64,000 bases of DNA from Massalongia carnosa. Its lineage: Eukaryota. The notes beneath the pieces are model-generated. The model was not told where the DNA came from, did not search any database, and worked only from the letters and a program-made list of their open reading frames with translations. Location: contig OZ287076.1 of assembly GCA_965645245.1 (NCBI GenBank), positions 186,001-250,000 on the forward strand, in the 5' to 3' direction. This document shows positions 6,402 to 43,320 of the stretch, in pieces; position 1 is the stretch's first letter, and each line of letters opens with the position of its first letter. Position numbers and translations under genes: made by a program.

Positions 6402-6429
6402 GGTCAGCTATTAGAGAAATAAGAAGCCA

Positions 6430-14365: not shown

Positions 14366-14369
14366 TATA

Positions 14370-23396: not shown

Positions 23397-26300
23397 CTAC
23401 CTTACTCTTTCCATTTTTTGCAGTCCCAATTGACTAATGAACCGATTGAAGATGGGCTTATTTAGAGGCTTGGTTAGGCCGTCGGCAATCATCTCTCCGC
23501 TGGGTATGTACTCGACCTGAATTCGATTTCGCTTGTGCAGGTCCCGAATGTGATGATAGGCAACGTCGATATGCTTAGATCTATCATGAATGTGAGCATC
23601 TTTTGCCAGTTGGATAGCGGCTTGATTATCTCCTTTTAACCGCATCGGGGAGTCAGCTTGATGCGTCAAGTTCTCACGAATATTGACGTTATGACTGAAA
23701 TATTTCTCGAAGCCTATGTCTTTCATCAGCTGAACGAGCCATAAACCCTCCTTAGCACAAGTTGATAAGGCCATGTATTCTGCCTCCGTTGTAGACGTAG
23801 CAACCGACTTTTGCTTTCTGCTCATCCACGATATAGGCCCTCCCCCTAGCATGTACACGTATCCCAAGATCGATTTTCTTTCGAGCCTATCAGCTGCGTA
23901 GTCTGAGTCGGAATACCCAATGAGGCCTTGGCCATGATTCCCCCCAGCCCCATACAGTATACCGATGTCAATGGTGGACCGAACGTATCTAAGCAGCGTC
24001 TTTAGTGCATGACCGTGATGAGCAGCTGGATCACTGAGATATTGGCTTAGCCTTCCAAGAGCAAAAGCTATATCTGGCCGCGTATGAATTGCCGCGTACA
24101 TCAGGCTTCCAACAATTTGCTGATATTCTCTTTGATCTATGCGCTTATCATCTTTTCCAGCCGGTCGCAATGAATCATAGCCGTTCATTGGAATTTCGGT
24201 AGGCCTGTGTTTGTCAGCGCTCATATGTGTTCTCTCCATCACATCTTTGAGATAATGCGTCTGGTCCATTCGAAGAGTTCGATTTTTCCGATCTCTGGTT
24301 ACTCGTATGCCCAGAACCTTCGACACTTCTCCTAGGTCCTTGATGCTAACGGCAGCATTGAACTCTTTCTTGAACCAATCGATCTCTTTCATCATTTTGG
24401 AGGCGATCACCAGGTCATCTACGTGCATGAATATGATGATTCCCTTTTTAGGATGAGTAAATAGGCATGGGTCAGATGAGCATTGAATGAAGCCTAGTTT
24501 GGTCAGCTCATTTGTACAGCGGCTATTCCATTCTCTGGCGGACTGCTTTAAACCGTATAGACTTTGCAGAATCTGAAGAACTCTACCAGGGGCAACGTTT
24601 ACTCCTTCCGGTGCGGTCATGTAAATGACATCTTTCAAGGTTGATTGGGTAAATGCGTTATTCACGTCCACTTGATGACATTCCAGGTTTTCCATCGCTA
24701 CTATGGCAAGCACTGCACGTAGGGTATCTGATCTTACCGTGGGGGCGAAAGTGTCCTCATAGTCGATGCCGTATTTTTGAGTAAACCCACGGGCGACTAA
24801 TCTTGCTTTAAACTTCTCCAATGAGCCATCGAGGTTGGTTTTTACTTTAAACACCCATTTGCAGGTGACGATGTTCGTTTTGGGAGGTGGAACAACTTCT
24901 TTCCAAGTCTTATTACCGATGAGCGCCTTGATCTCGGTGTTCACTGCTTCTTTCCATAGTTCCCCCCACACCGGATCATTTACTGCTTCCTTGTAAGACT
25001 TAGGCTCGGGTATGTTTCTTTCAAATGAAGAAGCATCAGCCGATAGGGCAGATTCGAATTTGAGATAGCCATCTTCATCCTCGTTATTATCGTCGGCGAA
25101 CAGCGCTAGAAAAGCGCGCGGTATTTTGAAAGCCGGTTCTTCGGGAACTGAGTCTTCATCAGATCGCTTTCGCTTCGGGATTGCAACATGAGAGAATATG
25201 CTAGTGCTAGCCTTAGGCACAGCTGCGGCTGGGATTGAATCATTCGCTATGGGCGACTCTTCGGAAGTTGGGATTGGTGGTACGTTTTGAGTGACATCAT
25301 CTTTCGGGTTTGGTTGGTCATGAGTTTGATTCTGTTGACTAGAAACCTCCACATGCGAAAATCTTTCTACTAATTTGGCGGGTTCGCTGATTTTCGTTTC
25401 TTTTGTCTTTTGTGGTCTTCCTACTGGCCGTCTTTCTGGTAGCACGTTGGGTGTCTGCTTCCGCAAGTTTAAATCAACGCTGCCACCTTTTAAATTTTCA
25501 TCAAATTTTACGACATGGCTTCTGATGATTTTTCCCATGTCGGGTGCCCAGAGACGATACTGTTTAGTGGTCTCTTCTACATATCCCATAAAGACTCCGA
25601 TTCTGCCTCTGTCCATGAACTTGTCTCTTCTGTCCCCCGCGGGTAGCGATTTGGGATCGACGTACGAATAGCATTTGCATCCCCATACCCTAATGTGATC
25701 AATGGATGGCTTGACGCCCGTGAAGGCTTCTTCCGGTGTGCTAGCATAGCCGTCGATGATCGGTCCGCATCCCGTGCGATTCCGAAGATATGCATCAGTT
25801 TCCATGGCTTCCTTCCAGAATTCGATTGGGAGTTCTGCGTCCTTTATCATGGCTCGCACCGAGTTCTCGGTGGTACGAATTGCTCGCTCGGCGACTCCGT
25901 TCTGAATAGACATATGAGGAACGGTGTATTGCGGAATAATACCGATTGAGGAGCACCATTCATCAAGAGTAGCCTTCAGCTCGGTGGCATTGTCACTCCG
26001 TACAGCCAATAGTCTTTGTGCACTTTGTAATTCGACTTTTATTCTCCATTTTCGCAATTCACCTGGTGCTTCGTCTCGCCTTTTGAGTGGAATGGACCAT
26101 ATCTTTCTAGAATAGTTGTCCACAATTTCCAAAAAGTATGTGTATCCTTCTCGAGAGGCAGGCAAAGGACCGCAAATATCGATGGAGACCAGAGCCAGAA
26201 GAGAGGTTTTTCGCTCGGTCGCTTTGCCTCTTTTATTGGTGAGCTTAGTGAGCGCGCATACCTCGCAAATGTGATCCTCTTCTTTGCTGACCGGAATAGG

Positions 26301-28070
26301 CTTTTCTAGGGTGGTGACCTTATGCAGGTTACGAAGCTTTTCTCGGCCTAGGTGAGCGAATCTTCGATGCCATAGCCTGTACGTTTCGGAGTGTTTGTCC
26401 GTCTTGGTTGGGTTAAGTGCGGGTGTTGACTCAATCTCGATTTCCATATTGTTATGTGTTGTTGGACATGTTAAACCCGCGCCGCGCGGCTTTAACGCCT
26501 CTGATGAAGACGAGAGTGATGCAATATCAACTTTGCTTGGAAAGGCAATGTCATGATGCATGGACGCGGTTAATGCGAATTCATCGAGATCCTTTGCTAT
26601 TTTCTCGACGATATATACTCCCCCTCGCTGCCGTGCCTCCATGATCTCCTTGCCTTGCTTGTCATGCATCTTCAGCCCGTGCTGATCGAAACTTCCGATG
26701 AGGCCCTTCTCGCACATCCGCCTTCCAGACAAGAGATTAACCCCTAGCTTGGGGACATAAAGGACAGAAGAAAGAAATCCCTGATTTCCGTGCCCATCCT
26801 TGATCACGCACGTACCGCGATGACATGCTCTCAATTCTCCCCCGCCGACCTTTATTCTTCTTTCTCTAATCTTTGTCAGAGGTCCGCTAAAGAGCTGAAG
26901 CTTGTCAGTCATGTGGGATGATGCGCCAGAGTCAGCTACCCATTTTGATCTGGGAATCTTACAGACTGCTTCTCTGGAGAGGGCCGCAGTTTCCTCGAGA
27001 TCATCTAGATCATCGTCATTGTCGCCTGATGAGAAGCTATCGTTCTCGTCCTCTTCTTCTGACTCGCCAGCGAGATAGCTCCGATGGCGCTTGACGGATG
27101 ATTTGCCTTTATTAACCTCTTTCTTCTTCTTCGCGAGGCTCCTGACGTGGCTGCGAGTGCTTTCCAAGAATTCGCACTCTTTGGTCCAGTGGCCGACTTC
27201 TCCACAGATTAAGCATCCCTTTTGCGAGTTGTCCTTGATTTTCGTTTCTCTCTTTGCACTTGAGGACCTTTCGTGCCGTCTGGATCGCTCCTGCCTGGAG
27301 TTGTTGAATGTGCTTTGACTTCTGGATGGGTTGAGAGGCCGTCGCTGCTCTCTTCGCTGTTCTTTCTGCTTTGCGAGCAAGGCTAAATCTGCTTTCGCCT
27401 GTGTTAGCTGAATTTCTTTGTCTTCCAACCTTTTTATGCCAATTTCGGCATCTACTCCCCCAATTGCATCAATTCCGTCCCTAATGACCGCGTACTCGGC
27501 TGGGAGAGATTGTAAGATTAATTGGAATAGTTGCCGAGTGGGAAATGCGTCTCGAAGTGTGGGTGTGGCCATGACGACCTTGTCTCTCAACAACAAAAGT
27601 TCCCCCCATGCTTCCTGAACGGTGGTGTTCTCTTTCATTTTATATGACACCAGCTCTTGAAGGTAATGTCTTCCTGAGGTGGGAAGGATGCTGTTGTACT
27701 TGCTTAACAGCGAGGTCCACTTTTCCGCCGCTGTCTTCATCACTCTTACGCGTTCTTGATCGAATTGGCTTAAGCAGATGGTTATAAGATAGCATGCTTT
27801 AGCGTTGTCCTTTCTCCATCTTTCCGAATCGATAATTGGGGTTTCCGGGGTGAGGGGTGTGTCTGATTTATCTATTCCTTTTCCATCAAGGCTTAATTTG
27901 TCCATTCGCTGCTGAAGGTACGAGGAATTGGGCTGTGGCTCGCTTATTGTATGAAAGATGCCTTCCGCTTCGAAATGCATTTCGGCCAGCTCGAACCATC
28001 TTTGATAGTTCTCCCTTGTCAGAACGGGCAAGGGTCTTCTTTTCGCTAGATCGTCTGCGATTGTTGTCAT
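23397..28070 (-). CDS. Copia Gag-Pol polyprotein, uninterrupted 1557-aa ORF
   Basis: CLICGEVGHWTKEC; WVADSGASSHM; LWHRRFAH; QNGVAER; FKARLVARGFTQ; HVDD; YSDSDYA; RSKHIDVAYH. Confidence 0.95.
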   Translation of the reverse strand: MTTIADDLAKRRPLPVLTRENYQRWFELAEMHFEAEGIFHTISEPQPNSSYLQQRMDKLSLDGKGIDKSDTPLTPETPIIDSERWRKDNAKACYLITICLSQFDQERVRVMKTAAEKWTSLLSKYNSILPTSGRHYLQELVSYKMKENTTVQEAWGELLLLRDKVVMATPTLRDAFPTRQLFQLILQSLPAEYAVIRDGIDAIGGVDAEIGIKRLEDKEIQLTQAKADLALLAKQKEQRREQRRPLNPSRSQSTFNNSRQERSRRHERSSSAKRETKIKDNSQKGCLICGEVGHWTKECEFLESTRSHVRSLAKKKKEVNKGKSSVKRHRSYLAGESEEEDENDSFSSGDNDDDLDDLEETAALSREAVCKIPRSKWVADSGASSHMTDKLQLFSGPLTKIRERRIKVGGGELRACHRGTCVIKDGHGNQGFLSSVLYVPKLGVNLLSGRRMCEKGLIGSFDQHGLKMHDKQGKEIMEARQRGGVYIVEKIAKDLDEFALTASMHHDIAFPSKVDIASLSSSSEALKPRGAGLTCPTTHNNMEIEIESTPALNPTKTDKHSETYRLWHRRFAHLGREKLRNLHKVTTLEKPIPVSKEEDHICEVCALTKLTNKRGKATERKTSLLALVSIDICGPLPASREGYTYFLEIVDNYSRKIWSIPLKRRDEAPGELRKWRIKVELQSAQRLLAVRSDNATELKATLDEWCSSIGIIPQYTVPHMSIQNGVAERAIRTTENSVRAMIKDAELPIEFWKEAMETDAYLRNRTGCGPIIDGYASTPEEAFTGVKPSIDHIRVWGCKCYSYVDPKSLPAGDRRDKFMDRGRIGVFMGYVEETTKQYRLWAPDMGKIIRSHVVKFDENLKGGSVDLNLRKQTPNVLPERRPVGRPQKTKETKISEPAKLVERFSHVEVSSQQNQTHDQPNPKDDVTQNVPPIPTSEESPIANDSIPAAAVPKASTSIFSHVAIPKRKRSDEDSVPEEPAFKIPRAFLALFADDNNEDEDGYLKFESALSADASSFERNIPEPKSYKEAVNDPVWGELWKEAVNTEIKALIGNKTWKEVVPPPKTNIVTCKWVFKVKTNLDGSLEKFKARLVARGFTQKYGIDYEDTFAPTVRSDTLRAVLAIVAMENLECHQVDVNNAFTQSTLKDVIYMTAPEGVNVAPGRVLQILQSLYGLKQSAREWNSRCTNELTKLGFIQCSSDPCLFTHPKKGIIIFMHVDDLVIASKMMKEIDWFKKEFNAAVSIKDLGEVSKVLGIRVTRDRKNRTLRMDQTHYLKDVMERTHMSADKHRPTEIPMNGYDSLRPAGKDDKRIDQREYQQIVGSLMYAAIHTRPDIAFALGRLSQYLSDPAAHHGHALKTLLRYVRSTIDIGILYGAGGNHGQGLIGYSDSDYAADRLERKSILGYVYMLGGGPISWMSRKQKSVATSTTEAEYMALSTCAKEGLWLVQLMKDIGFEKYFSHNVNIRENLTHQADSPMRLKGDNQAAIQLAKDAHIHDRSKHIDVAYHHIRDLHKRNRIQVEYIPSGEMIADGLTKPLNKPIFNRFISQLGLQKMERVR

Positions 28071-28108
28071 TTTTGATATTTGATTGTGCTTGTTGGATCC
28101 GTCGTATC

Positions 28109-29199: not shown

Positions 29200-30910
29200 C
29201 GATCGCCATAGAATGTGTTTCTGTGATCATTGATGACATACTGAGGCTTGATTGACGTTTGAAAGTTCTGAAAAACGACTGCTTGAGCCGTCGGATCAGT
29301 TAATCGCCTCAGACATAGGACGCTCTCCGAATATCCTCGAACGCATTCCGGATCGTACTCGATCCTTCACAAGAGCGCCGTATTTTGAGACATCGTCCGA
29401 CGAGTTTATGAGTATTCGAAACCTGCGGCGATTGCCGCGTGAGCCGCTTTCGATATGCCGCGACCTTCGACATTCCTTTACCTGCCCGAGATGACGTTTA
29501 GGCAAAAACAAAAAAAGTGCCTCCATCTAATTACGCCGCGCAACGGGTTGTGTTTTCGCCACAAAATTGCTTTTTCGCCACCGGGTTTTTCTTTCAAAAC
29601 TCAACCCGGACACCAAAAATCTTAGGGTTCGCCACAAACGGGTTGGGTTTTCAGTAGAGAAACCTAACCCGTTGCGCGGTGTACATCTAATACCGCTGCG
29701 TAGGAACCCTTATCAACTATCGTCGAAGTTTTCGGCGGATTGATGAGACTTAAAAGATTCTCGTCGATGATGAGGAACAGATCGTGCGTGAAATCAGAAG
29801 AAAATGAAAATCTCGTAGAAATTGAATAGAAATCGTAGGTTGTGATAATGATATCGATTTATATTGAGTTAATGTAGATACTTTTTCAAACAGTATTACA
29901 CCTATAGTCAATTATCTTGCGATCGATTCCTGCAAGCCAGACTATCGTCTTCAAAGAATTATTGACCCCACGTTGTCGCGATTCTCCGATTGCAGGCGCA
30001 CCGAAATTGTTTCGAATAGGGCTGAAACTAGCTAGAGCAGAGCGAACAGATAAGTACCACTCTGAAACGCGCAACTTCATGGCCGAAGAGCTGGAGACAC
30101 ATTTCACAAACGCATGTGTTGTCGTCGTGATGACTTCTTGGCCATTTGGCATCCGCAGCCGCAACCCGAGGCATCCGTGGTTGGTCAGAAATTCGTCTGG
30201 CGATTCGCCACGGCATAGAATATCCCGAAGCAATCCGATCCGAAGTCATGTCATATTGCGCTATGAGATATCCGACTCGCTGCCCACCCACCGAATCAAC
30301 AGCACCAAGTTCAACACGCTTTCATTGCCCCTCTGTCATCGAAAAGAATCATGACAAATCCGCAGATTAGTAACCGCACTCCAACCGAGCCGGGGAAAAA
30401 CTCCCTGAGTGTACGCAGGTCATCGGATCTCAACAGACGTCGGCAGTTGATCCGCCTCACTAGAGGATCTTCACGAAAGAGATGGAGACTTGGCGGAGGA
30501 AGTTCATGACCTGGTAGTGCTGCAGGGAAATCAGATTAGATTGTGTCAGCCTCAGTCTCAGGAGTACGGTAGGGTTAACCTGCAACTGGCCTGATTCGGC
30601 TGAGCAGACGATATTCATTGATGTCGATTGATGTATCAAGTGCGTCTTCTGTAAGGGTGTCTGAAGCAGCCTGTGTTCGAATTCGCTTGGCGGATCTTTT
30701 GATATCATCCTAATGTCGAAAAATGAGTCACCGAAATCTTCAAGATGGACCGTCGGTGGCATACCATGATAAAGTTCTCGCTTGGTCTTGGTGTTGATTG
30801 GTTAAATCTTATCGAAGAGAAACACTTGCCGTTAATGCAGGATGCAGGTTGCAGGAACGGAGGTTTTTCGTGCGTACTCGGTAAAGTGCGAGCATTAGCG
30901 AGCCACACTT
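29200..30910 (-). pseudogene. Degenerate fungal gene, possibly a trypsin-like serine peptidase fold
   Basis: Fragments GCLGLRLRMPNGQEVITTTTHAFV and ALL*RIE..GYSESVLCL..AVVFQNFQ resemble T..H and G.SGS protease motifs. Many stops and frameshifts, plus a MITE insertion. Confidence 0.45.
29532..29683. mobile_element. 152-bp MITE, hAT-like
   Basis: 18-bp TIRs TACGCCGCGCAACGGGTT / AACCCGTTGCGCGGTGTA (17/18 match); 8-bp TSD CATCTAAT at 29524-29531 and 29684-29691. Confidence 0.9.
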
Positions 30911-31456
30911 GACAGGACGCCTCTAGTCGAAACGAAGTAGGTACTACTTTTGCTCTCCAGAGAGTGTTTTATCTTTCTCTGATGCTCTACTTCATCTACG
31001 GTTCATATCGTACTTCATCGACATCTAATTGTCACAGCATTTGCGGTTCACAAAGTACTCCACTGCGGCGTCTAACTTGTCAGTCTAGTCTCTTGTGATT
31101 GAATTGCCTTGATTATCTGTTCAGCCTCACCTCAGGTATGAAGAAAAGCGCGTTTATCGTCTGTTTTTTCAATTTCATCTTGATGATAAAGTATTTCGCT
31201 TTCATCAATCATTACAAGAGCTTCTCTCCATTGGCCCTGCTCCAAGGTTGGCCGGCGGCGCCTTATCTCAAGGAGGAGCTGAGTCAATCTCTTGCATCAT
31301 GTTCGTATGATAACGCTACGATCAAGCCGTGTTCTTTGCGTCGTAATTGACGAAGAAGAGACGTCAAATTCTTGCTGCAGTAAAACTCTCACTACTCTGC
31401 AACAGCAATCGTACTTTCGTTTCAGGCCCGAGGTCTCTGTCAGATTTGTGTCGCCA

Positions 31457-33820
31457 TCACATGATGGAATCATCATGTGCATCATTCTCCAGCAGCAGTT
31501 GAACTATCGCTTCATGTCCACCTGACGAAGCCTCTGTCAGAGCCGTTTGACCAGTCCATGCTTTAGCGTGAACATGTGCCCCTTTTTCTAGCAGTAGTCT
31601 TACTATCGCTTCATGTCCATGAGACGAAGCTTCTTTTAGAGCCGTCTTATCAGATCCACCCCCGACGTTGACACCCGCTCCGTTTTCCAGAAGCAATCCT
31701 ACTATCGCTTCATCTCCATTTCTCGAAGCTGTCAGCAGCAATGGATCAGTTACAGCCATTTCGTGAATATTCGCCCCTTTATCTAGAAGTAACTTCGTTA
31801 TCATGACATTACCTTTTTCGACAGCGTAGAATAAAGGTACTCGTTTCATATTATCTCTCTTAGATACTCGAAAGCGAACCTGAAGAATATTTCTTGCTCC
31901 TTTCAAAAATTTCTTAGCAAGGTTGACAAAGCCGAAATATGCAGCTAAGTGTAGCAAAGTAAAAGATTTCCCAGAGCGTAACATGTCATAAAAATTTCAT
32001 CTGAAAATATATGTCCTTAATCAAGCATTAGGCACAATAGATATATTCTTGAAGAAAGTATGCGAATAATCAAAGCTAGAAGAGCGTCGGGCGTGCTTCG
32101 ATCCAAAAAACGTTGCGTATAACAGAAACTGGTATTGGTTCAAGCGATCGTTATCAGAATACTTAGAAATCCCGCCGATTAAATGAAATGGCCCTTTTGC
32201 AAAGGCTCTGGCTTCGAGATAATCGAGACAAGTCTTTAAAACTGTCAAGTTCTTTCCGCCTCTCTAAAATATCTAGCCGCGCATCGAAATAATTCTTTTT
32301 GCGTAACAGGTAATCCTTGACCGATTGATGAACCAGGTTAATCCTGTTATCAGGCGTTGTGACATGTATTAAAGCTCCACAGAATCCAACATGATCTCTG
32401 ATGACTTCGTCATAGTTCAGAGTTCCATCGCCTCGGATATCTGTCGCAGCCGCCAATTCTGTCAAGGTCAGAGAATAGATCGCATCAAGCCCTGATGGAA
32501 TACTGTTGAGAACATTTCGCACTTCAGCAGCGCTCGTTCTCCACAGTTCTTCAATGACAAAAGAAACCCATAGGAATGTTCCGTTGGCACGTTGCAGCAA
32601 TATATCCATCACGAACTTTTTAAGCGTTTCAGAATAATCTTTCTTCCTAGCTAGCTCTTCGACTCGGACAGAAACAAATAGTAGAAGATCGCAATTCACC
32701 TCGTGGTCTGAATCTGGATCAAGTCTTATCCGGTTCCACTCGAAAAACTGTCGTGAAATGCAAGCTGGTAGATCTCGGCTGAGGAATATAAACTTGCATA
32801 TTTAACCTGAAGGCTTTCGATCCGTCGAAGAAAAGAATCTGTTGCACTCTTTTAACCAAGTTTCTAAAGACGACTGCTGACATTCATCAAGATCATCGAT
32901 GACGCAGTAATTCATGGCTTGAACACTTGAGTTATTTATCATGTTTCGGAAAATTCTCCAAAGTGCTTCCGGAGCTGTTGGAGAGTAGAGAAAATTTTTG
33001 TTCTGCTGCTGGAATTCGGGTAGAATATATCGAAACAAGGCTCGACGTTGCTTAAGCATTTGCGAGATTAACGACTTGAGAATTGCTACACTGGTGTTGC
33101 GATCTGAGTCTTTGTTGTCACAGAAAAAGTATAACAGTATAGCGTTTTCCGATTTCTTTCTCATATTCTCGAGCACTTATGTGCGGAAAATCGAGATCAT
33201 TGTTTTGCCCTTTCCAGGACCACCAGATATCCAAAGGGCAAGCGTTTTGACATCTTCTAGCCATTATAAACAAAGCTCATGACTTGTTATCCACTCGCAG
33301 GTGTTATCAACCCGTTTTCCTTTAGCGTTGATCAGTCTTTGTCTGTCGTCTTCGGGATTCGTCACAGATAAAGCTTGGAGGCAGTTCTCCTCTGGGAAAT
33401 CTCAACTACATCAGCCAGATAAAACATAAGATCCGTTTACTGAAGCAAGAACAGACCTTTATTATTTTGACTCATCTTATAGAATATTCTTATGAGTATG
33501 ACATTGCAAGATACCTAACGATAAGATACCACATACCATTGCGTTATGAAATTGATTCGTGATATCTTACAAAAATCAATTGCGTTTCCACAGCTTTCCT
33601 TTCTAAGATAACTCACTAGAATTGATTGCGACATTCTCGCCGCCCTGGGCGCCAGTATATAAGCCAAAATTGTCTCGAGCGGAGTTGTTGGTGATATCCG
33701 AAGTCTGTCGAGAATGATTTGCCTTGATCGAGTTAATTGAATGAAACCGATCAACGATTTGGTTGGACTCGACGTTACCATTCGGGAATCTTCACCTAGA
33801 GCAGGAAAGACCGAACTCAT
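31457..33820 (-). pseudogene. NACHT-ankyrin NLR with a short N-terminal extension encoded on micro-exons
   Basis: CLQALSVTNPEDDR..GKRVDNTCEWI, LWISGGPGKGKT, LYFFCD, CVIDDLDEC, ANGTFLWV, LVHQSVKDYL and ankyrin repeats (TAL.EASS.GHEAIV.LLLE). Four frame-preserving introns at 33778-33723, 33616-33566, 33536-33476 and 33456-33392; stops and frameshifts in the NACHT region. Confidence 0.88.
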
Positions 33821-34037
33821 CTTTTAAGACTGCGAACGGCGTCGTTGACAAGGATGAGACTCGTGAGATCCTTCTGTATGAGATAATCATTGATGTTGGA
33901 AAACGGGGATGAAGATAATCCTTATCCTTGGTGAGGAGTTAACTAAGTCTGAACAGCATTTTGGCGTCTCGCAATGGAATGACAAATCATCAGATAAGAA
34001 TGATTGGCTAATAGACTGAGAGATCAACGAAACCACT

Positions 34038-34404
34038 ATGTCATTCTTGAGAAAGCTTCAACAAGTGTAAAGAAATGGCAGGGCTTTCAGATCCGCTCAA
34101 CAGTATAATCGATGCTATCGCGGAGTGAGAAGTCATGATCTGATTTTCCAACAGCGCTCATTGATGTATGAGCATCGTCTTTGTCCACGGTCTGCACGGC
34201 GATCGGGAGAAAACGTGGACCCGATTCAATGTTTTCTAACCCCAACAACTCCTTCCAGTCGATGTGAAACGAGCCCGCATCCTATCCTGGGGATATGATG
34301 CGCTCATCGCCCACCTCTGGTCTAAGATCTCGCAGAACGAACTCAATGATCACTCATCCAATCTCTGTGGCGACTTGATCGGGTTACGAGACTCCACCGA
34401 AGCG
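34038..34404 (+). pseudogene. SesB-like / DUF676-type alpha/beta hydrolase, 5' fragment
   Basis: Spliced DAIAD|IVFVHGLHGDREKTWT..F*PQQLLP.DV..ARILSWGYDA..SQNELNDHSSNL..DL. Stop at the conserved Trp; the remainder is lost at the downstream TE cluster. Confidence 0.8.
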
Positions 34405-34535
34405 GTGAGTGGTGGTTTCTACATGTACCTTTGGAAGACGGGAACGAGATGCCTAGGGACAGTCCCCTCCCGACCGTCCCCTGTGTAAATCTTTGCTAGT
34501 AAACACTGCTCATCCAGGGTGCGTACAAGCTATTA

Positions 34536-34613
34536 CAGTCGAACCTCGCTATAGGGAAGTTCCGTATAACGAAAACCTCGGCATAACGAAATTATTTTTC
34601 GGATTTTTGTAGT
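34536..34613. mobile_element. Orphan pogo/Tigger-like terminal sequence
   Basis: TA|CAGTCGAACCTCGCTATA..CCGTATAACGAA..CCTCGGCATAACGAA; no partner TIR found in the window. Confidence 0.55.
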
Positions 34614-34615
34614 TA

Positions 34616-36835
34616 ATCGTCGGCCTCGCTTAGCTGCCTCCATACGAGGTGTACCACCTCTAGTCGGGGAAAGCGGTCTGCGTAGGCAAGCGATCTGCGT
34701 AGTTTCAATTTCAGTTTACCACCTAGAGAATTTTGCAGCTTTTTGCGACACTTCTCGACCGGAACCTACGACCATTAGCTATTATTATTCATACCAACTG
34801 CACATCCTAACTGCTCATTTATCAACCGGGAATGCATTATATTTTTTCCAATTTCACCAGTTTTATCACCTATTTACAACTCATTTGCGACGCCGTCTCA
34901 TCCTGATTTGCAACCTCCATTTGCTTTATTTTCAACCTCATTTGCAAACATTATTAATAAGTAGATATATATCAATTTCGCGTTCTAATAGTAACTCCTA
35001 GTCTGACGATAGCCCCCTTGATAAAAGTTAAACTGCTCATCCTCATCACCCTCATCACCTTCATCATTCTCATCCTCATCACCATCATCACCCTCATCAT
35101 TCTCATTATTCTCATCAAAAGCTATGAAGTTCGTCTGCTCGCGAATAGAGTCATCTTCTATAACTCGTAGACTATCATCACCTATAGTATCCGTGATGAA
35201 TTCGATCTCATCCCTATCTTCATCTGTCTCATCTGCAGTCTGCCCTTTCTTCTTTCTTGCCGCCTCCTTCCTCGCCACCTCCATCTTCCAAATAGAGTTT
35301 GTCTTCTTCCATTCTGCTTCGGGATCTTCAATGGGAGTCAGCTTATCAATAGGAATGATGACGCCTTGCCTGTCGAGCTCCTTGACTTGCTTTTGCCGAA
35401 CTCTTTCATCTTTTCGCGCAGCAACTCCCTTGATGTGTATAGCATTACGTTCCATTCGCCATATTCTCATGTAATTGTTGTGCTCCTTTCTTCTTTCCTC
35501 TCGTTCTTCTTTTTCTTGCTTTTCGGCAATGACTCGTTCTGCGTCCTCCTTTGTGAGTCCTGACGCCTCCGAATAGGTAGATTTTATCCTCTTGCGAGAG
35601 GTTGCTTTGTGTAGCAATTCATCATTTCTCCTTTTGCGGATAATTTCAGTTCGAAGTCGGTGAGATTTGATTTTGCAACAATCTGCTTCGCACTAGCAAC
35701 AAACTGTTCAAACTCGTTTGGCCGATTATCATCACTCCACTGCGTACATTCTGAATTTTTGGCAACCAATCAATCAGCCCCCTTTCAACATCATCGAAGG
35801 TTTGAGGTTGAATTCGTGCGGGCAACACTGGAAGGGGGGGATCCTCATTCGCGCGCTTCTGACCCGGCAGGTGGCCCCGCATCACCTGGTCACCCCGCAG
35901 CATTCGAACGGGCCTTTCAACCCCTAGGGCGGCGAATTTTTAAAGCTGTTTAATGCATAACCCCCTATTGATAGGCCACATTCCGGCCTTTCTAAAAGCA
36001 GATCGAATGGTGGAGCTTGTGAAAGTGTTGTCTCGTATTTTGGTGAGGTCTTGACAAAACCGAGTCAATGAATACTCGGTGTTGAACTCTGCAAGGACAT
36101 CTTGGATAACCTTATCATGCCAATGCTTATAGGGTTGAAATACACCCACATCAAGGGTTTGCATACAATGAGTCAGATATGGTATCAGGGGGAGAGGGCG
36201 AATGTGATTTTCATTGGCAAGCTTTATAAACTCAGGGGTGCAATGAGTCCCATGATTATCCATAAGCATCAATTTCCACTGCTTTGTAGGCCCCGAGTTT
36301 GTATTCGCAATGAAATGCTTCAAAAATTCAATGGCTATTTCATCGGTGATGAACCCACTTTCTGATACTTGAATCAGAGTCCCCGTGGGCAGCCCTTCTT
36401 CGAACTAGTTCTGCATTATTCTACGACCTTGCATGATTAAAGGGGGGGTGATTGATTACCGGCGGCGTTGATGCTTTCGATTATGGTGAGAGATTTGCGA
36501 TTTTCTGGACTGATCGAATAGAACTCCTTAATATCTGATGGAACTAGAATTTCATGACCCTTCATACACTCAACTCGAAATCCTGCTTCATCAAAGTTCC
36601 AGATATCTTGTGAACGAATTATTCCCAACTCTGGAAGAACCCGCTGATATCGATCAAACCATGATCTCACATCTGACTCCTGAGCCGCAGTATATCGAAT
36701 AACTGCCAGCGGCTTGGTCTTTATCTTGTGCAGGCCATTGTCTTTCCACCATTGCCTAAACCACCGCGGACTTGGACGATTGAATTCCTAGAGGTGGTAC
36801 ACCTCGTATGGAGGCAGCTAAGCGAGGCCGACGAT
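34616..36835 (-). mobile_element. Fot1/pogo transposon, internally deleted (no N-terminal HTH)
   Basis: Perfect ~48-bp TIRs ATCGTCGGCCTCGCTTAGCTGCCTCCATACGAGGTGTACCACCTCTAG with flanking TA. Transposase fragments WNFDEAGF, MDNHGTH, QTLDVGVF; the coding sequence abuts the TIR near 36787. Confidence 0.92.
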
Positions 36836-39800
36836 TATCTCGGTTTAGACTCAAAGCTGAGTCCGGCTCACTCTCCCACAACTCTCACCGTGGCTTCTCA
36901 ACCCCCATCTCTTGATTCCTCTCATCCTACACCAATCTTGCATCGTAGCACAATCCTGGTGGCCTTCCAGCTTCTAGAATTCATCAAAACCGGTCACAGA
37001 TACGCCGATCTCATCAGTAAAGAGATCAGGCAGGTAGCCTCCGCCGTAGTTGCAACCAACACTAGACCAACTGAAGGTCAACTTATCACTATCCAAACAT
37101 CATTAAGGCAAGGTCCATCCACAAGATCCTCTGCAGAACCCGTAGCGTTTGACTATAGATGGGCCACAGACAAAGGCGATCTTAGAGTAGCTCTACAGGT
37201 TTTCTATAAGGACACGGCAGAATTTCGAGGTTCATCTTACTACTATAGCTTCTTAATATTCAGGGAACCATCAAATTCCTCCGGAACTCCCACTCCCGAA
37301 AGACCAAGTGTTGACCTTTTGCAGAACACCTCGATACCTGCCTGATCAAAATCCGGCTTCTGCTACTAGAGCTACAACAAGGGAGACATCGGCCGACGAA
37401 GTAATATTCAACAGTCCAATCGGGCCGCAGGACCAACCACACCCGGTCCCTCCCAAATTTGCCCCAGGTACTCTTAGGCTTAAGCCATCCTCTTTACATC
37501 CAAGATGGTCTCATCGTCAGCCCAACCTACTATTGATCCGACAATTCAAGCCATGATCGACGCCGCGATAACATCCGCATTCAGACGTCTTGAAAAAAAT
37601 CAGTCCGCAGCATCGGGACCCCCAGGACCACCCGGGCCGCCAGGACCCCCAGGCGATCGAGGGGAACCAGGCCTAGGATCTAATAGCACATCAGGCGGTC
37701 GTTGGAATGCAGGTGAGATAGGTTTCTTTGATCCCCACTTCGAGGGCAAGAGCTTGTCCACCGGTCCCTCAATCGAACATTCGGGCAAAGACACATATTA
37801 CAGGGACGTACACGTCTTTTGTGACAGGATAAAAGATATGGCAATCATACTAGGAGGAGAGCAGGTACGAAACCACCTTGCCACTTGCCTTAGAGGGACA
37901 GCCCTTAGCTGGTACACATCGGAGCTTGTGGATGGAGAGAAACGACTATTGAAATATGGTAAGGACGTTGACGAATGGATCACAGCATTGACATCCCGGT
38001 TTAAAGAAAGCCCTGGGATCGCTATGAAGACCATCATGAGAGAAAAGTACACAATGGAAGATGCTCGAAGGCATAAGGAACCCAGAGAATATGCCAAATC
38101 ATCCTGCGTGCGGCCAAATCAGCCAGTATGACAGAAGTTTATAATCAGCTCTTTTTGATTTACAATGGCCTCGATGTGGAATTTCAGATAGATATGATGA
38201 CTCCAACACCCACCACCAACCTTAGTGGATTCCTACAGGAATTAGACTCTCATAAGGAGATCTGGTGGGCCTTGGGTGCCAGGTCTGGATATGGCAACAG
38301 CTCTAAGCAGCCGTCACGAAACTATCGCTCCACAGGTCAGTATAGATCCAACTACAATTCCAATTCCAATTCTGGACCCTTCAACAGACAGGAATATTTC
38401 CGGACCGGGGCTTCAACCTGTCATCGGCAAACCTCAGTTCAATGCTTATTCTGAACAGTATTCCAACAACATGGCCACTGGCTACAATCAAGTCTCAAAC
38501 GACGCGCGTGCCCTGAATGCTCCACCCTCTCAGAAGATGATCACGCAAGGCCAATCCAATTCAGGAAACGGGTCCGCTTCTCGCGCAAATCAGCAATTCA
38601 GACAACCTCTCCGCAACATCTTTCCTGATAACAAAGGCAGCTTCAAACCACAAAAAGCCTATCACACAACCACGGACGACAACTCGAAAGACGTGAATTT
38701 CAGTACTGAGGAAAGATACTGGGAAGACGATCGATACTACGATGAACAGCAGGAGAATACATCAGACCACCCAGATGAGCCGGATTCGGCCGACGTAAAT
38801 TTCGTAGAACCTGAAATAACTTACACATGTAAAAGATGCACATCGTCATTCTATTCTAACAACAAGCTTCATAGACACCTTCGAGGATGCCGAGCGGTTC
38901 AGAAGACATCGGTTATCGTCAACTTTGTTGACTGCAGTAAACACGATGATGTATCAGCGAAAGTACTTCGCTCCAAAGCAAATCAGGTACAAACGACGGA
39001 TTTAGCTTCAGGTCCTGGCACTATGCTAAGATTCTCGCCTCACTCATTTAAAGGAAAACCAGAGGAGATTTGTCTAGATACAGGAACTAGCATGTCTGCA
39101 ATTGATCATGGATTCTTGCTGGAAAGAGTTCCAGAGGCGAAGATAATGAAAACAGCCGTTCCATTCACCCTTCGAGGCATTGGTAAAGAGTTACATGATA
39201 GCTCGGAGTATGTATTACAAGACATATATCTACCAGGTCGGACCAAGGATGGGCCAGCCATCGCACACATTACTCGAGAAATCCATATAGTTGACAGTCT
39301 AAAAGCCAAAGCATTTATAGGAATGGACATCATCTTCCCAGAAGAAATGGTGATCAACACTCGAAAGAACGTCGTAGAGTTCGGAAGTTGTGAGGTAGAG
39401 ATCCAATTGTTCACTACATCAAAGGGTCAAAGGATCAATCGATCGGTTCTGGCACAGACATTGACCACCATTCCTCCGAACACGACCATGGCGCTGCCCA
39501 TAAAAATGCGCGGAAAAACCATACCGAGTGACAGAGACTACTCATTCCATCCAAGCTCTAACAGAACCCTCGGCCCAGAAGGAGGCCTCTTCTCTCACAT
39601 AACTAACTCTCAGTTCGCCGCTATTCAGGTACGGAATACCTCGAATAAACCGGTAATACTACCAAAAAATATGAAGGTAGGTACGTTAGTAGATTACGAA
39701 GAAGAAGGCTGCTACAACGTAGAGGAAGAAAACCGCCATTTAGCTATCAAATCAGCGCCAAACTGGTACGATAGCTTCACCAAATTGGCTAAATTTGGGC

Positions 39801-42800
39801 CGGCGGCCTTCAGCGGCACATCTCATGTTCTATCCCAACCACACGAAACTGCGCAGGAAAGGGTAACAGACAACGGAATAACCATATACGGCGATTCTTC
39901 GACATAAAACAGGCTTTCTGCAGTGGCAAAGGCCTATCACGATATATGGAGGGACAAAGGAGGTGTTGTGAATATCCTAGAAAAGGACTGGATGGAAATA
40001 AAAACAATAAATGACGCAAAGCCCATGCCAGCCAGAGTCTTTCGCTTGGGACCGGAGGATAGAGCGGTAGTTGACAAAGAATTCGATGCGATGCACAAGA
40101 GTGGCAAGATGGAATGGACAACCAAACCCACACCATTTGCATACCCAGTATTCGTGGCATGGCGAACAATTCATCTCCCAGGGAAGATTCCAGAAAGGAA
40201 GGGCTGCGTCGTCATAGATATTCGAGGGCTCAATAAGTTATCCGAATTCGATGCTTACCCAATGCCTTTACAGGCGGATGTTACCTCCGCTATTCAGGGC
40301 TGCACCTACATCAGCGTCATGGACGGGGCAGGTTTCTTCCATCAGTGGCCAGTAAAAAAATTGGACCGCCACAAACTCACAGTAGTATCTCATAGAGGAT
40401 CAGAACAATGGAACGTGGCAGTAATGGGATACAGAAACAGCCCGGCCTATGCGCAACGTCAAATCGACGGGATTCTCAGGCCATATCGAGCTTTTGCCAG
40501 GGCATACGTAGATGATATAGTCATATTCAGCCACTCTTTGGAAGAGCATATTCGCCATCTCAATCGGATTTTCGAACTATTCAGCAAAATCAATCTGGCA
40601 ATCAAGCCTTCTAAGACGTACCTCGGATACCCTACCATCACACTTCTAGGACAGAAGGTGGATAGTCTTGGCCTCACAACCGCAGCGGAAAAGCTATCCG
40701 CAATAGCAGGCATGAGTTTCCCAGAAAGGCTCAAAGATCTCGAGCGATATCTTGGATTCACCGGATGGCTTCGCGATCATGTACCATACTACGCACAAAA
40801 GGCGGAACCGTTGCAAATTCGGAAGACCATGCTTCTTAGAGACTCTCCTTCCAACAAGGGTAAATCTAGGAAGAACTATAGCCTTCGAACCCTTATCGCA
40901 ACCCATCCGATGCAGAGCTGGACGCCTACTCTCAATTACAAGAAGCATTCAGCAAGCCTAGCATGCTCACTCATTTTTCCACAACACGAAGACTGTACGC
41001 CGACGTAGATACCTCCAAGCAAGGAGTAGGAGTTATGGTATATCATTTAAAAAGCGATAGAGGTAATGACGGAGTATCAATACCCGCACTACCTCTGAAA
41101 AGACAAGACGTAGACCCCATCCTGTTTCTCAGCAAAACTCTTTCGGCCGCCGAATCAAGATACTGGCCCACTGAGTTAGAGATGAATGGGCTAGTATGGA
41201 TGGTAAAGAGAATTCATCATATGATTCAAGGATCGAGACATTCAACTACTATTTATACCAATCATGCGGCAAATACAGCAATTGCTAAACAGACTAAGTT
41301 GTCTACAAGTAGCATCGACAAGCTCAACCTCAATCTCGTCAAAGCATCTACATATCTATCTCAGTTCAGGTTAGACATACGGTACAAACCCGGCAAAGCT
41401 CATATAGTCCTAGATGCACTGAGCCGATTGCCCGTCGCTAACCGAAGTACACCAAAGACAATTAATCTGGAATCCTATAAAACCTCCGTAGAATCCCTAG
41501 AATCCGATCGAGTGTACGCCCACAGTCAAGCCTTGATAACACTATCCACAGATTTCAAGAAAAAACTCGCAACGGGTTATATCAAGGACAAATCGTGGTG
41601 CAAAATATTGGGAATGTCAGAGGGTCTGGAGAAGCGTAAGATGAAAGAAGTAACTACACAAAGTAGCAATTCCAATGCTGATAATGCGGTGAAAACGGGC
41701 GTGGACTTCGTGCTCGCACACGGTCTCATATATCACAAACACGAGGGCAGTAACGCCACCAGCAACAGCAGCAGGCTGTGCATTCCTCAAAATTGCGAAA
41801 AGGAAGTATTTCAACTGGCCCACGATCAGAACTTTCACGCCGGCCATCATAGAGCTTATCGCCGTTTGGTTGAGAGCATCTACATGCCAAGACTATCTCG
41901 CAAACTTCATCTCTACATTAAACACTGCCCTGCATGTCAGCTAAATCAGACCAAAAGACATCCCCCATACGGCGAATTGATGCCAATTTCTAATTCAACA
42001 ATACCATTCCGAACAATTGCTATGGATTTCATACTCGCAATCCCCGGTGACCTAGATGTAGTTCTCACAATCTCAGACAAAGCGACCAGGAAAAAATCGC
42101 TTATCGCTGGTAAATCAACGCATTCCGCGGACGAATGGGCCGAATTAGTATTGGAGCGCCTGTTGATAGCCGATTGGGGGATACCAGAGGGTATAATCTC
42201 GGATAGAGACCCCAAATTTCTTTCAGAATTCTGGAAGGGCCTATTCAAAAGATTGGGTATCAGTCTATTGACAAGTACAGCATATCATCCACAGAGGACG
42301 GTTTATCCGAAAGAACAAGTCAAACCGTGGAGATAGCGCTTCGATACCTGATCACCGAGAATCCCGATATAAGTGTAGTGAAAGCGCTTCCAGCTTTACA
42401 AGCAAGTCTAAACAATTCTCCCACGTCATCCACAGGACTATCTCCTAATGAAATAATGTACGGATTCAAAGTGAAAGAAATATTGTCAACACTGGCCCCC
42501 GAGAAAGAGCCAAACATAGCCGAAAAAAGACTCGAGTATGCACAAGAGGCCGCAGACGCCACATCTTTTGCCAATGCAAAAGCCAAGATCTATTACGATG
42601 CAAGACACAAGCCTTTGTTATTGAAGGAAGGGGACTATGCGTATTTACGCCTTCACAATGAGTATCAATTACCGTGCAAACCTAATAAGAAGCTGAGCAA
42701 TCAGCGAACTGGACCCTTTCTCATTAAGAAAAGGGTAGGGCGCCTGGCGTACGAACTAGAGCTACCTCCTAAATGGAGGGTACATCCCGTCGTATCCATT

Positions 42801-43320
42801 GCCCAGCTTGAGCCTGCAGACACTACAAAGGACCCGTATGATTGTTATAGACCCACGCATCCAGAATCAGTGGAGATGCTAGGCGACACAATTGACAGTA
42901 AATCCTACGAAGTGGAGAAGATGGTAGCCAAACGGCTCCGAAAATATGGGAAGACCACAGTAACTCAATACCTCGTACGATGGCTGGGGTACGGACCAGA
43001 GTACGATGAATGGAGAAGCATCGCAGCCTTAGGAGACTGCTTAACACTGGTAGAAGAATATGAATCAACTCATCCGGAGGTAAAGCAATCAAAGACACAA
43101 CGAAAGCAGCGGGTTGTAGCAACTAAAGGGCTTCTAATAAAGCCCAAACATCACACATGGCACGCACAGGTACACCTACAACAGCGGCCGAACTGACCGC
43201 AGTAAGCAAAAATCCGCCATCAGCTCAAACCACAACGCCTCCGACAACATCCCTAGCAAAACATGCATCTATTCCAACATTCAAAGCAATAAACAATAAT
43301 TCACCCGATGATATCGACTA

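What the first reader, a model, noticed from the sequence alone, without database searches (positions are those of the whole stretch)
33300..34404. Candidate amyloid-signalling pair: micro-exon N/G/Q motif on a NACHT-ANK NLR, head-to-head with a SesB-like hydrolase
Seen in sequence: the ORF track misses this, but four GT-AG introns (56, 51, 61 and 65 nt) all preserve frame. They splice to MSSVFPALGEDSRMANHSRQTSDITNNSARDNFGLYTGAQGGENVAINSNITNQFHNAMMSQNNKEENCLQALSVTNPEDDR, directly before the NACHT domain. The receptor therefore has no globular effector domain, only a ~35-aa N/G/Q/aromatic segment. About 220 bp away, divergently transcribed, is an alpha/beta-hydrolase gene. Established: fungal NLRs lacking effector domains activate adjacent HeLo, HeLo-like or SesB effectors through short amyloid motifs (NWD2/HET-S HRAM, sigma, PP). 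Inference: NNSARDNFGLYTGAQGGENVAINSNITNQF is such a motif. I cannot match it by eye to HRAM, sigma or PP, so it may be a new class. The effector C-terminus, where the matching motif should be, is deleted here, and both genes are decayed.
Basis: partly seen in the sequence, partly recalled or inferred. Interest (0 to 1): 0.85.

Follow-up and report, generated by a model that had tools for sequence, protein, structure and literature searches.

The report
Dead fungal NLR–lipase signalling gene pair
This is the decayed remnant of a fungal immune-receptor gene and a neighbouring lipase-like gene that probably once communicated through a short shared amyloid-type peptide, a design already known in fungi.

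Summary
254 bp away, on the other strand, lies exon 1 of a SesB-like (DUF676) hydrolase.

Both genes are dead. The NLR has at least 7 in-frame stops, a frameshift and a short ANK array. The hydrolase has 4 stops, and only exon 1 survives before a nest of repeats.

In-frame GT-AG splicing alone is not beyond chance: 269 of 300 shuffles allow such a model. The support comes from homology. The closest full-length relative of the hydrolase (P0129, 338 aa, stand-alone) carries a C-terminal tail that aligns with the NLR N-terminus. Only 10-12 of 5000 shuffles reach that score, and only 1 of 1548 cross-comparisons of other N-termini with other tails does. The alignment runs across the exon 2/exon 3 junction.

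Eleven of 73 related NLR loci have a divergent effector gene upstream.

The motif fits no published PP, sigma or PUASM consensus and no Pfam model. Whether it is a new class or an HRAM-like variant stays open. Splicing and amyloid formation are untested.

Verdict: a decayed member of a known kind of system. Interest is modest.

The parts
33779..33820 (-). NLR exon 1: ATG at 33820 plus 13 more codons
   Evidence: It is needed to give the exon-2 frame a start codon. Its donor GTAACG is the weakest splice site.
33723..33778 (-). Intron 1, 56 nt, GTAACG..AAG, with TTAAC near its 3' end
   Evidence: It is not supported by the strict GTNNGT donor filter.
33617..33722 (-). NLR exon 2 (106 nt): main part of the N/G/Q/aromatic motif
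   Evidence: Of the 25 stop-free peptides of 20 aa or more in six frames of 33392-34074, this frame scores highest against the tail of hydrolase P0129 (47; next best 31). It has no Pfam hit, no word-sharing homologue and no atlas hit.
33566..33616 (-). Intron 2, 51 nt, GTGAGT..AAG
   Evidence: (boundary corrected by 1 nt).
33537..33565 (-). NLR micro-exon 3 (29 nt): end of the motif (..ITNQF..)
   Evidence: Adding it to exon 2 raises the score against the P0129 tail from 41 to 53. Of 104 stop-free 10-mers in the 225 nt downstream of exon 2, only 1 reaches that score, and it is this exon read from its first whole codon.
33476..33536 (-). Intron 3, 61 nt, GTATGT..AAG
33457..33475 (-). NLR micro-exon 4 (19 nt). 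It begins with an ATG that could be an alternative start (MSQNNK..).
33392..33456 (-). Intron 4, 65 nt, GTCTGT..CAG, with a CTGAT branch-like site
   Evidence: The NACHT frame is closed by TGA 6 codons upstream of CL. In relatives, 36 of 74 loci have the NACHT frame closed within 30 codons upstream of CL, and 34 of those have no in-frame ATG, so an intron there is common in this clade.
32802..33391 (-). NACHT (NPHP3_N) nucleotide-binding domain, with Walker A GGPGKGKT near 33209; decayed
   Evidence: Pfam NPHP3_N 1.7e-17. TAA stops. 572 homologues, the best at 50% identity. Homology to P0002 starts at 33392.
32163..32801 (-). Winged-helix/linker region of the NLR; frame change near 32268/32269
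   Evidence: Weak GPIID_WHD and AAA_lid hits. tblastn pieces change frame at 32268/32269.
31394..31996 (-). Ankyrin repeat region. It is short compared with relatives of about 1000 aa.
   Evidence: Pfam Ank 2.9e-26. Homology ends near 31394, whereas P0002 and P0003 continue to residues 1041 and 1004.
33821..34074 (.). 254-bp shared upstream region between the two divergent start codons
34075..34404 (+). Exon 1 of a SesB-like (DUF676) alpha/beta hydrolase. It has 4 in-frame stops (codons 18, 23, 30, 55) and ends just before the catalytic GHSLGG of relatives.
   Evidence: P0122. (homology 34081-34404, up to 54% identity to P0129). (1880 relatives at E<=0.001).
34405..34511 (+). GTGAGT donor and start of the hydrolase intron, which runs into high-copy repeats. 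The rest of the gene is not in the window.
   Evidence: Sequence. Relatives read through into 'VS' at this point (P0127). A unique contig ends at 34511 and summed contig depth rises more than 100-fold in the 34414-34647 bin. No second exon was found by tblastn or motif scan.

Best explanation
The locus is the dead remnant of a two-gene fungal NLR/effector module of the amyloid-signalling type. A NACHT-ANK receptor carried a short N-terminal motif in place of an effector domain. It sat head-to-head with a stand-alone SesB-like lipase/esterase whose C-terminal tail carried the matching motif.

In the intact ancestor, ligand binding by the ankyrin repeats would have oligomerised the NACHT domains and brought the N-terminal motifs together. 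Those motifs would have nucleated a cross-beta fold that templated the tail of the hydrolase and switched it on.

Shown here: the gene architecture, the decay of both genes, the stand-alone-with-tail nature of the hydrolase's closest relatives, and the resemblance of the closest relative's tail to the NLR N-terminus.

Inferred: splicing, the amyloid fold, templating and the biological output.

Today neither gene can work. The NLR has stops, a frameshift and a shortened ANK array. The hydrolase keeps only a stop-ridden first exon before a transposon nest.
For: 1. Architecture. The NLR domains are confirmed. No domain is found in the N-terminus. A divergent DUF676 hydrolase exon lies 254 bp away.

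2. Hydrolase relatives. The best full-length relative is P0129: 338 aa, 54-57% identity, and a complete GHSLGG hydrolase domain that ends near W289 of the A2 alignment, followed by a 49-aa tail. Of the 34 hits of 240 aa or more, 12 are 306-502 aa proteins with G/N/Q-rich tails and 5 are longer than 600 aa.

3. Motif match. The NLR N-terminus against the P0129 tail gives a local score of 53.
- 10 of 5000 shuffles of the N-terminus reach it, and 12 of 5000 shuffles of the tail.
- P0129 is the best of 36 hydrolase C-termini.
- The window is the best of 44 NLR N-termini against P0129.
- Only 1 of 1548 cross-comparisons between other NLR N-termini and hydrolase tails reaches 53.

4. Reading frame and micro-exon. 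The exon-2 frame is the best of 25 six-frame peptides. Exon 3 is the best of 104 possible continuations.

5. Clade habit. Of 73 metagenomic loci of related NLRs with at least 600 nt upstream, 11 have a divergent effector gene: 9 HeLo-like, 1 PNP_UDP and 1 SesA. The HeLo-like genes inspected carry HRAM-like repeats at the C-terminus.

6. Published precedent. NACHT-ANK het-eN with sesA/sesB, PNT1 with HELLP and the lipase SBP, and a het-eN 5' intron that hid the motif (PMC3321046 passages; PMC5485727 passages).
Against: - There is no RNA evidence for any of the four introns.
- The intron 1 donor is weak (GTAACG). A rival in-frame model from the same ATG exists, and a short start at 33475 is also possible.
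- The motif family so far has one outside member, P0129, which is an unnamed sequence from 1.2-1.9 kb contigs whose genomic neighbour is unknown.
- If P0129 is treated as merely the best of 36 comparisons, the shuffle p-value is no longer compelling (7 of 1000).
- None of the 73 related loci shows a divergent hydrolase. The 3 hydrolase cases are fused on the same strand.
- The hydrolase fragment also hits NLR-fused forms (P0124, DUF676 + NB-ARC).
- The motif has no Pfam ASM hit and scores at chance on a sigma-like profile built from relatives (2.7 bits; 219 of 2000 shuffles reach it).
- The cognate C-terminus itself is absent, so the key within-locus comparison cannot be made.
Confidence: 0.6

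Rival explanations
1. The hydrolase exon is the N-terminal effector domain of a second, now destroyed NLR (SesB-like-NB-ARC/NACHT). [quoted passage not shown]
For: P0124 from Lecanora helva (1466 aa, DUF676 + NB-ARC) is one of only two word-based hits. Five of the 34 relatives of 240 aa or more exceed 600 aa. Three of 73 related loci have the hydrolase fused upstream of NACHT. Another NLR (patatin-AAA_16-TPR) lies in the same window.
Against: The closest full-length relatives are stand-alone proteins of 306-502 aa with tails. The closest of all carries a tail that matches this NLR's N-terminus.
Confidence: 0.15
2. The N/G/Q peptide is not part of the protein. Translation started at the ATG of exon 4 (33475, MSQNNKEEN..) or used the 101-codon ORF from 33820 in the other frame. 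On this reading the likeness to the P0129 tail is a chance match between two low-complexity, N/G-rich stretches.
For: In-frame GT-AG models arise in 269 of 300 shuffles. With GTNNGT donors, the 8 models found do not include intron 1. Many annotated relatives start 6-30 residues before CLxAL. No homologue of exon 2 turned up in a 5.8-billion-protein word search.
Against: Shuffles that keep composition reach the observed score only 10-12 times in 5000. Only 1 of 1548 real N-terminus/tail cross-comparisons reaches it. The match continues across the predicted exon 2/3 junction. The other-frame ORF scores 17 against P0129. The short annotated starts of relatives mostly come from intron-blind gene calls, and 34 of 74 loci need an upstream exon.
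Confidence: 0.15
3. The pair is real, but the shared peptide is not an amyloid-forming motif. It could be a different kind of short interaction or targeting tag shared by receptor and hydrolase.
For: No known ASM profile or consensus is met (patterns taken).
Against: The composition (G, N, Q, aromatic residues, almost no charge, no proline in the core) and the position (NLR N-terminus and effector C-terminus) are those of all described fungal ASMs (PMC9815663 sections 19 and 24). Related NLRs in the same clade use HRAM-like and sigma-like motifs.
Confidence: 0.1

Closest known systems
s locus of Nectria haematococca: het-eN (NACHT-ANK NLR) with sesA and sesB (alpha/beta hydrolase), sigma motif (Daskalov et al. 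2012, PMC3321046, passages read)
   Same: A NACHT-ANK receptor without an effector domain. An adjacent SesB-type lipase/esterase. A G/N/Q/aromatic-rich peptide at the receptor N-terminus and the effector C-terminus. A 5' intron that hides the receptor motif from naive annotation.
   Different: The sigma signature (three repeats of GxGxQFNxx / GGTQNINT) is not present. No sesA gene lies next to this pair. Both genes here are pseudogenes and the effector tail is missing.
PNT1 / HELLP / SBP of Chaetomium globosum, PP motif (PMC5485727 and PMC3321046, passages read)
   Same: An NLR that controls a putative lipase (SBP, a SesB homologue) through a short motif centred on a G-x-Q core.
   Different: The PP consensus FxGx(x)NxGLQLxGxNxGxL is not met: there are no hydrophobic residues flanking Q, and the G/N spacing is off by one. 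No HeLo-like partner is present here.
NWD2 / HET-S of Podospora anserina and HRAM pairs (PMC3321046)
   Same: Divergently transcribed adjacent genes, and a receptor with only a short N-terminal motif. Relatives of this NLR in metagenomes show exactly this layout with HeLo-like genes. The start of the window motif (I-T-x-x-S-A-R-D ... G-A-Q) resembles the N-termini of related NLRs P0070 and L066 by eye.
   Different: The effector is an enzyme, not a pore-former. The 21-residue HET-s register (N1, G10, G17, N18) is not met. The similarity to HRAM-like N-termini was not tested statistically.

Membership tests
Fungal NACHT-ANK NLR (STAND NTPase) | NACHT/NPHP3_N P-loop domain with Walker A | tested here: met
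   PF24883 at 1.7e-17. GGPGKGKT is present. 572 homologues, the best at 50% identity.
Fungal NACHT-ANK NLR (STAND NTPase) | C-terminal superstructure-forming repeats (ANK) | tested here: met
   Ank 2.9e-26 and Ank_2 3e-25 on 31457-31996. The array is short: homology ends near 31394.
Fungal NACHT-ANK NLR (STAND NTPase) | Intact open reading frame | tested here: not met
   4 TAA stops in 32163-33401. A frame change at 32268/32269 and 3 more stops.
NLR/effector amyloid-signalling gene pair | The receptor lacks a globular N-terminal effector domain and has a short extension instead | tested here: met
   68 residues precede CLxAL in the spliced model. No Pfam family at E<=10 on either reading. Only 254 bp separate it from the divergent gene.
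NLR/effector amyloid-signalling gene pair | An effector gene of a known NLR-associated class lies adjacent | tested here: met
   A DUF676/SesB-like hydrolase exon at 34075-34404 on the opposite strand.
NLR/effector amyloid-signalling gene pair | The same motif at the receptor N-terminus and the effector C-terminus within the locus | not testable with these tools
   The effector C-terminus is absent from the window. As a surrogate, the tail of the closest relative P0129 matches.
NLR/effector amyloid-signalling gene pair | The motif forms amyloid and templates its partner | not testable with these tools
   No aggregation predictor (ArchCandy, ASMscan, PCFG) or experiment was available.
sigma motif | Threefold repeat of motif A GxGxQFNxx and/or motif B GGTQNINT (PMC3321046) | tested here: not met
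   By inspection of the peptide, neither motif occurs. There is no Pfam NACHT_sigma hit on exon 2 or on the 62-aa ORF. A profile of the sigma-like motif of 10 SesA/NACHT relatives gives 2.7 bits, reached by 219 of 2000 shuffles.
PP motif | FxGx(x)NxGLQLxGxNxGxL, pseudo-palindromic around Q | tested here: not met
   By inspection, only G-A-Q with nearby G and N is present, the flanks are not hydrophobic and the spacing is off. There is no PF17046 hit, nor one on P0129.
PUASM | FxGxGxQxxGxGxF, associated with PNP_UDP (PMC9815663 section 24) | tested here: not met
   By inspection, the pattern is absent from the window peptide and from the P0129 tail. The effector here is a hydrolase, not PNP_UDP.
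HRAM / HET-s motif | [quoted passage not shown] | tested here: inconclusive
   By eye, no register satisfies the pattern. The start of the motif does resemble the HRAM-like N-termini of related NLRs (P0070, L066). There is no PF11558 hit. A profile test was begun but stopped (see Tried and rejected).
SesB-like / DUF676 serine hydrolase | N-terminal (I/V)VF(V/I)HGL..(x)..TW..FWP..LLP..ARI..(W/F)GYD block | tested here: met
   tblastn and phmmer alignments. Relatives score DUF676/PGAP1/Abhydrolase_6.
SesB-like / DUF676 serine hydrolase | Catalytic GxSxG (HSLGG) nucleophile elbow | tested here: not met
   Homology stops at 34404, just before it. No HSLGG is found between 28000 and 50000, and tblastn with hydrolase relatives finds no further hydrolase segment anywhere in the window.

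The most novel reading that the evidence does not exclude
The window peptide and the tail of P0129 (with P0274 possibly a third member) define a further, so far undescribed family of fungal amyloid signalling motifs. Its approximate form is D-x-x-N-N-[AS] .. D-[SN]-F-G-[LV]-[YF]-x-G-(x)-Q-G .. N-x-[IF]-T-N-[QH]-F. It would be dedicated to SesB-like lipases in lichen-associated or related ascomycetes and encoded on the receptor side by micro-exons that standard gene callers miss.
Probability: 0.25. Interest if true: 0.5.

Novelty: new member of a known kind. Interest (0 to 1): 0.33.

Why it matters
If the reading is right, it adds a lipase-coupled receptor/effector pair from a poorly sampled group of fungi to the catalogue of amyloid-based immune signalling. 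The nearest named relatives are lichen-forming and earth-tongue ascomycetes.

It also points to a practical problem. Receptor-side motifs split over 19-106 nt exons, and effector genes cut at a conserved first intron, are invisible to intron-blind gene calling. Of the 150 best hydrolase relatives, 116 are fragments shorter than 240 aa. Surveys of such motifs therefore probably undercount them.

The locus itself is dead and has no present function. A live relative of the effector (P0129) exists and would be the object to study.

Tried and rejected
- **Whole genome:** none is held for this window.
- **RNA evidence:** no RNA holder is listed. All four runs laid were contigs and showed no splice joints in 33392-33778. 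Splicing is therefore untested.
- **Lichen-metagenome run X5:** it covered only 29532-31755 of the unique island. Nothing is concluded from the uncovered part.
- **RIP as the cause of decay:** rejected. TA/AT is 0.31-0.67 and (CA+TG)/(AC+GT) is 1.20-1.44 across the locus, so the composite index is negative.
- **Exon-2 peptide searches:** no Pfam family. 6 word-sharing candidates and none at E<=10 among proteins of 78-2000 aa. No usable ESM Atlas hit.
- **Sigma-like profile from 10 relatives:** no better than shuffles.
- **Pairwise comparison with 92 pre-NACHT regions:** nothing convincing. Some top hits were ankyrin repeats picked up through a loose Walker-A pattern, including an ANK-like resemblance of NNSARDNFG..LY..A..G that 10 of 200 shuffles reach. 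I rejected this as chance.
- **Rest of the hydrolase in the window:** not found by motif scan or tblastn.
- **Supplement search of PMC9815663** for five short strings of the motif: 0 occurrences. Files 9 and 10 were not searched, and the HMM/FASTA files were not readable. Those profiles could still classify the motif.
- **Earlier findings of this scan:** nothing relevant.
- **HRAM-like profile test:** I stopped that step, so membership in HRAM is left open.
- **Not attempted:** structure and complex prediction, because a stand-in partner and an amyloid fold are unlikely to be informative.
Full report
**What is there**

The window is fungal and rich in transposons. It holds copia, gypsy and pogo/Tc5-like elements and a second NLR.

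The finding sits in a 4.9-kb unique island, 29641-34511. One public contig covers the island without a single difference. High-copy repeats flank it on both sides, and summed contig depth rises more than 100-fold at both edges.

The minus strand carries a NACHT-ANK NLR:
- Pfam NPHP3_N scores 1.7e-17 on 32802-33176, and ankyrin repeats score about 1e-26 on 31457-31996.
- The search found 572 homologues. The best are unnamed proteins at 49-50% identity. Next come proteins from Glutinoglossum, Candelina, Lobaria and Geoglossum.

**The gene model**

| Feature | Coordinates (minus strand) | Length | Splice sites |
|---|---|---|---|
| Exon 1 (ATG at 33820) | 33820-33779 | 42 nt | |
| Intron 1 | 33778-33723 | 56 nt | GTAACG..AAG |
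| Exon 2 | 33722-33617 | 106 nt | |
| Intron 2 | 33616-33566 | 51 nt | GTGAGT..AAG |
| Exon 3 | 33565-33537 | 29 nt | |
| Intron 3 | 33536-33476 | 61 nt | GTATGT..AAG |
| Exon 4 | 33475-33457 | 19 nt | |
| Intron 4 | 33456-33392 | 65 nt | GTCTGT..CAG |
| Exon 5 | from 33391 | | |

Homology to the best relatives begins exactly at 33392/33391. The NACHT frame is closed by a TGA six codons upstream of CL and has no ATG, so an upstream exon is required. This is usual in the clade. In 36 of 74 related loci the NACHT frame closes within 30 codons upstream of CL, and 34 of those have no in-frame ATG.

**Is the splice model more than chance?**

Not by arithmetic.
- With any GT..AG intron of 45-90 nt, the real sequence allows 1385 in-frame models. 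269 of 300 shuffles allow at least one.
- With GTNNGT donors, only 9 of 300 shuffles allow a model. The 8 real models under that filter leave out intron 1, whose donor is GTAACG.
- Those 8 models include a rival that reads the 101-codon ORF from the same ATG in another frame, and a minimal start at 33475.

The choice between models therefore has to come from homology.

**The neighbour**

An ATG at 34075 on the + strand opens 110 codons with four in-frame stops. These codons align with the N-terminal block of SesB-like/DUF676 hydrolases.

Homology ends at 34404, one residue stretch before the catalytic HSLGG of relatives. The next bases are GTGAGT. Several relatives' gene calls read on into 'VS' at this same point, so 34404 is a conserved exon boundary.

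Repeats begin within about 100-160 nt of that boundary. No further hydrolase sequence is present in the window.

An exhaustive HMMER search of 1.84 billion representatives found 1880 relatives at E<=0.001.
- Of the 150 best, 116 are fragments shorter than 240 aa.
- Of the 34 longer ones, 12 are stand-alone hydrolases of 306-502 aa that end in G/N/Q-rich tails. Five exceed 600 aa.
- The twelve with tails were scanned against Pfam. Eleven gave only hydrolase families, one (P0146) gave no family at all, and none hit a Pfam amyloid-motif model.
- In an alignment, the conserved hydrolase domain stops near W289 of P0129 and the tails are unalignable.

**The key result**

P0129 is the closest full-length relative of the hydrolase fragment: 338 aa, 54-57% identity, unnamed, from 1.2-1.9 kb contigs. 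It ends in a 49-residue tail that aligns with the NLR's spliced N-terminus.

Shared features are D-x-x-N-N-[AS], D-[SN]-F-G-[VL]-[FY]-x-G, Q-G, and N-x-[FI]-T-N-[HQ]-F.

Statistics for the match:
- The local score is 53. It is reached by 10 of 5000 shuffles of the N-terminus and by 12 of 5000 shuffles of the tail.
- P0129 is the best of 36 hydrolase C-termini for this N-terminus.
- This N-terminus is the best of 44 NLR N-termini for P0129.
- Among 1548 cross-comparisons between the other NLR N-termini and hydrolase tails, only one reaches 53. That pair, P0005 with P0185, looks like a true shared motif itself.

The match also discriminates between gene models:
- Of the 25 stop-free peptides in six frames of 33392-34074, the exon-2 frame scores 47. 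The next scores 31, and the rival 102-residue ORF scores 17.
- Appending exon 3 raises exon 2's score from 41 to 53. Of 104 possible 10-residue continuations from the following 225 nt, only exon 3 itself reaches that value.

The caveat is that it rests on a single outside sequence.

**Context in relatives**

I fetched 80 metagenomic loci of related NLRs at 34-45% identity over the NACHT region. The 73 loci with at least 600 nt upstream break down as follows.

| Upstream arrangement | Loci |
|---|---|
| Fused SesA | 11 |
| Fused PNP_UDP | 3 |
| Fused hydrolase | 3 |
| Fused helical domain | 2 |
| Divergent HeLo-like gene | 9 |
| Divergent PNP_UDP gene | 1 |
| Divergent SesA gene | 1 |
| None of the tested domains | 43 |

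Five of the six divergent HeLo-like genes I inspected end in paired HRAM-like repeats. No such repeat was seen for L066, but the NLR of L066 starts with an HRAM-like motif followed by an intron.

The head-to-head two-gene layout is therefore a habit of this NLR clade. No divergent hydrolase was seen among these distant relatives.

**Which motif family?**

Published definitions come from passages of PMC3321046, sections 19 and 24 of PMC9815663 and passages of PMC12261475:
- PP: FxGx(x)NxGLQLxGxNxGxL.
- Sigma: three repeats of GxGxQFNxx and/or GGTQNINT.
- PUASM: FxGxGxQxxGxGxF.
- HET-s/HRAM: a 21-residue register with N at 1 and 18 and G at 10 and 17.

By inspection, neither the window peptide nor the P0129 tail meets PP, sigma or PUASM. 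No Pfam model hits. A profile of the sigma-like motif found in SesA-NACHT relatives scores at chance.

By eye, the start of the motif (I-T-x-x-S-A-R-D ... G-A-Q ... I-N) recalls the HRAM-like N-termini of P0070 and L066. I could not complete a profile test of that resemblance. Whether this is a new family or a divergent HRAM-type motif is open. The profiles that would settle it are supplementary files that could not be read here.

**State of the locus**

Both genes are pseudogenes.
- The NLR has four TAA stops in the NACHT part, a frame change near 32268/32269, three more stops, and an ANK array that ends near 31394, whereas relatives continue for several hundred residues.
- The hydrolase has four stops in its only surviving exon.
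- The decay is not RIP-like.
- Contigs from a second coded organism label are identical over 31291-33460, stops included.

**Verdict**

The interpretation as a relic of an NLR/SesB-like amyloid-signalling pair is the best explanation (about 0.6). It rests on architecture, on the nature of the hydrolase's relatives and on one specific motif match.

Splicing, amyloid formation and the 'new class' claim remain untested. The kind of system is well known (het-eN/sesB, PNT1/SBP, NWD2/HET-S). This is a dead member of it, with a possibly undescribed motif variant.

Noticed in passing
window 785-3381 (+): A second NLR-like gene: patatin-like phospholipase, AAA_16/NB-type NTPase and TPR repeats. It is split over several ORFs, either by introns or by decay.
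   Followed up: no
window 6415-10848 (+), 23400-28106 (-), 13006-18749 (+), 37484-43193 (+), 35943-36787 (-), 43501-44670 (+): A transposon nest. Two copia elements have long open polyproteins (1478 and 1569 aa). There is also a decayed copia with a DDE_1 insertion, a gypsy/chromovirus element, and two pogo/Tc5-like DDE transposon copies. The gypsy element sits inside the pogo-like element that follows the hydrolase exon.
   Followed up: partly
window 29532-29683 and 34565-34730: Both edges of the unique island are high-copy repeats. Contigs in public runs join 29558 to 34614 and 29679 to 36219, as if the same repeat family flanks the island.
   Followed up: no
L025, L037, L042, L047, L072 (metagenome loci); L066: Related NLRs have a divergent HeLo-like gene 0.6-1.1 kb upstream. 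In the five loci named first, that gene's C-terminus carries two HRAM-like repeats. The L066 NLR begins with an HRAM-like motif followed by an intron. These look like live NWD2/HET-S-type pairs.
   Followed up: partly
P0005 (Glutinoglossum americanum NLR N-terminus) and P0185 (hydrolase tail): This was the highest-scoring N-terminus/tail pair among 1548 cross-comparisons (score 60). Both carry a G-x-[IL]-[FL]-Q-G-N-like core, which suggests another NLR/SesB-like motif family shared across unlinked records.
   Followed up: no
L002, L006, L016, L017 and P0020, P0025, P0029, P0042, P0045: All-in-one SesA-motif-NACHT proteins keep a sigma-like G/Q/N-rich stretch between the SesA domain and the NACHT domain. 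An intron separates the motif from the NACHT exon.
   Followed up: partly
window 50216-50817 (+) and 62749-63465 (-): Protein-kinase fragments in two adjacent ORFs, and a MAGE-homology (Nse3-like) gene in the only GC-richer part of the window.
   Followed up: no
window 33515-33823 (-): A 102-codon open frame starts at the same ATG as the NLR and overlaps exons 1-3 in another frame. It has no Pfam hit and no likeness to hydrolase tails. It is probably fortuitous, but it is the basis of the rival gene model.
   Followed up: yes
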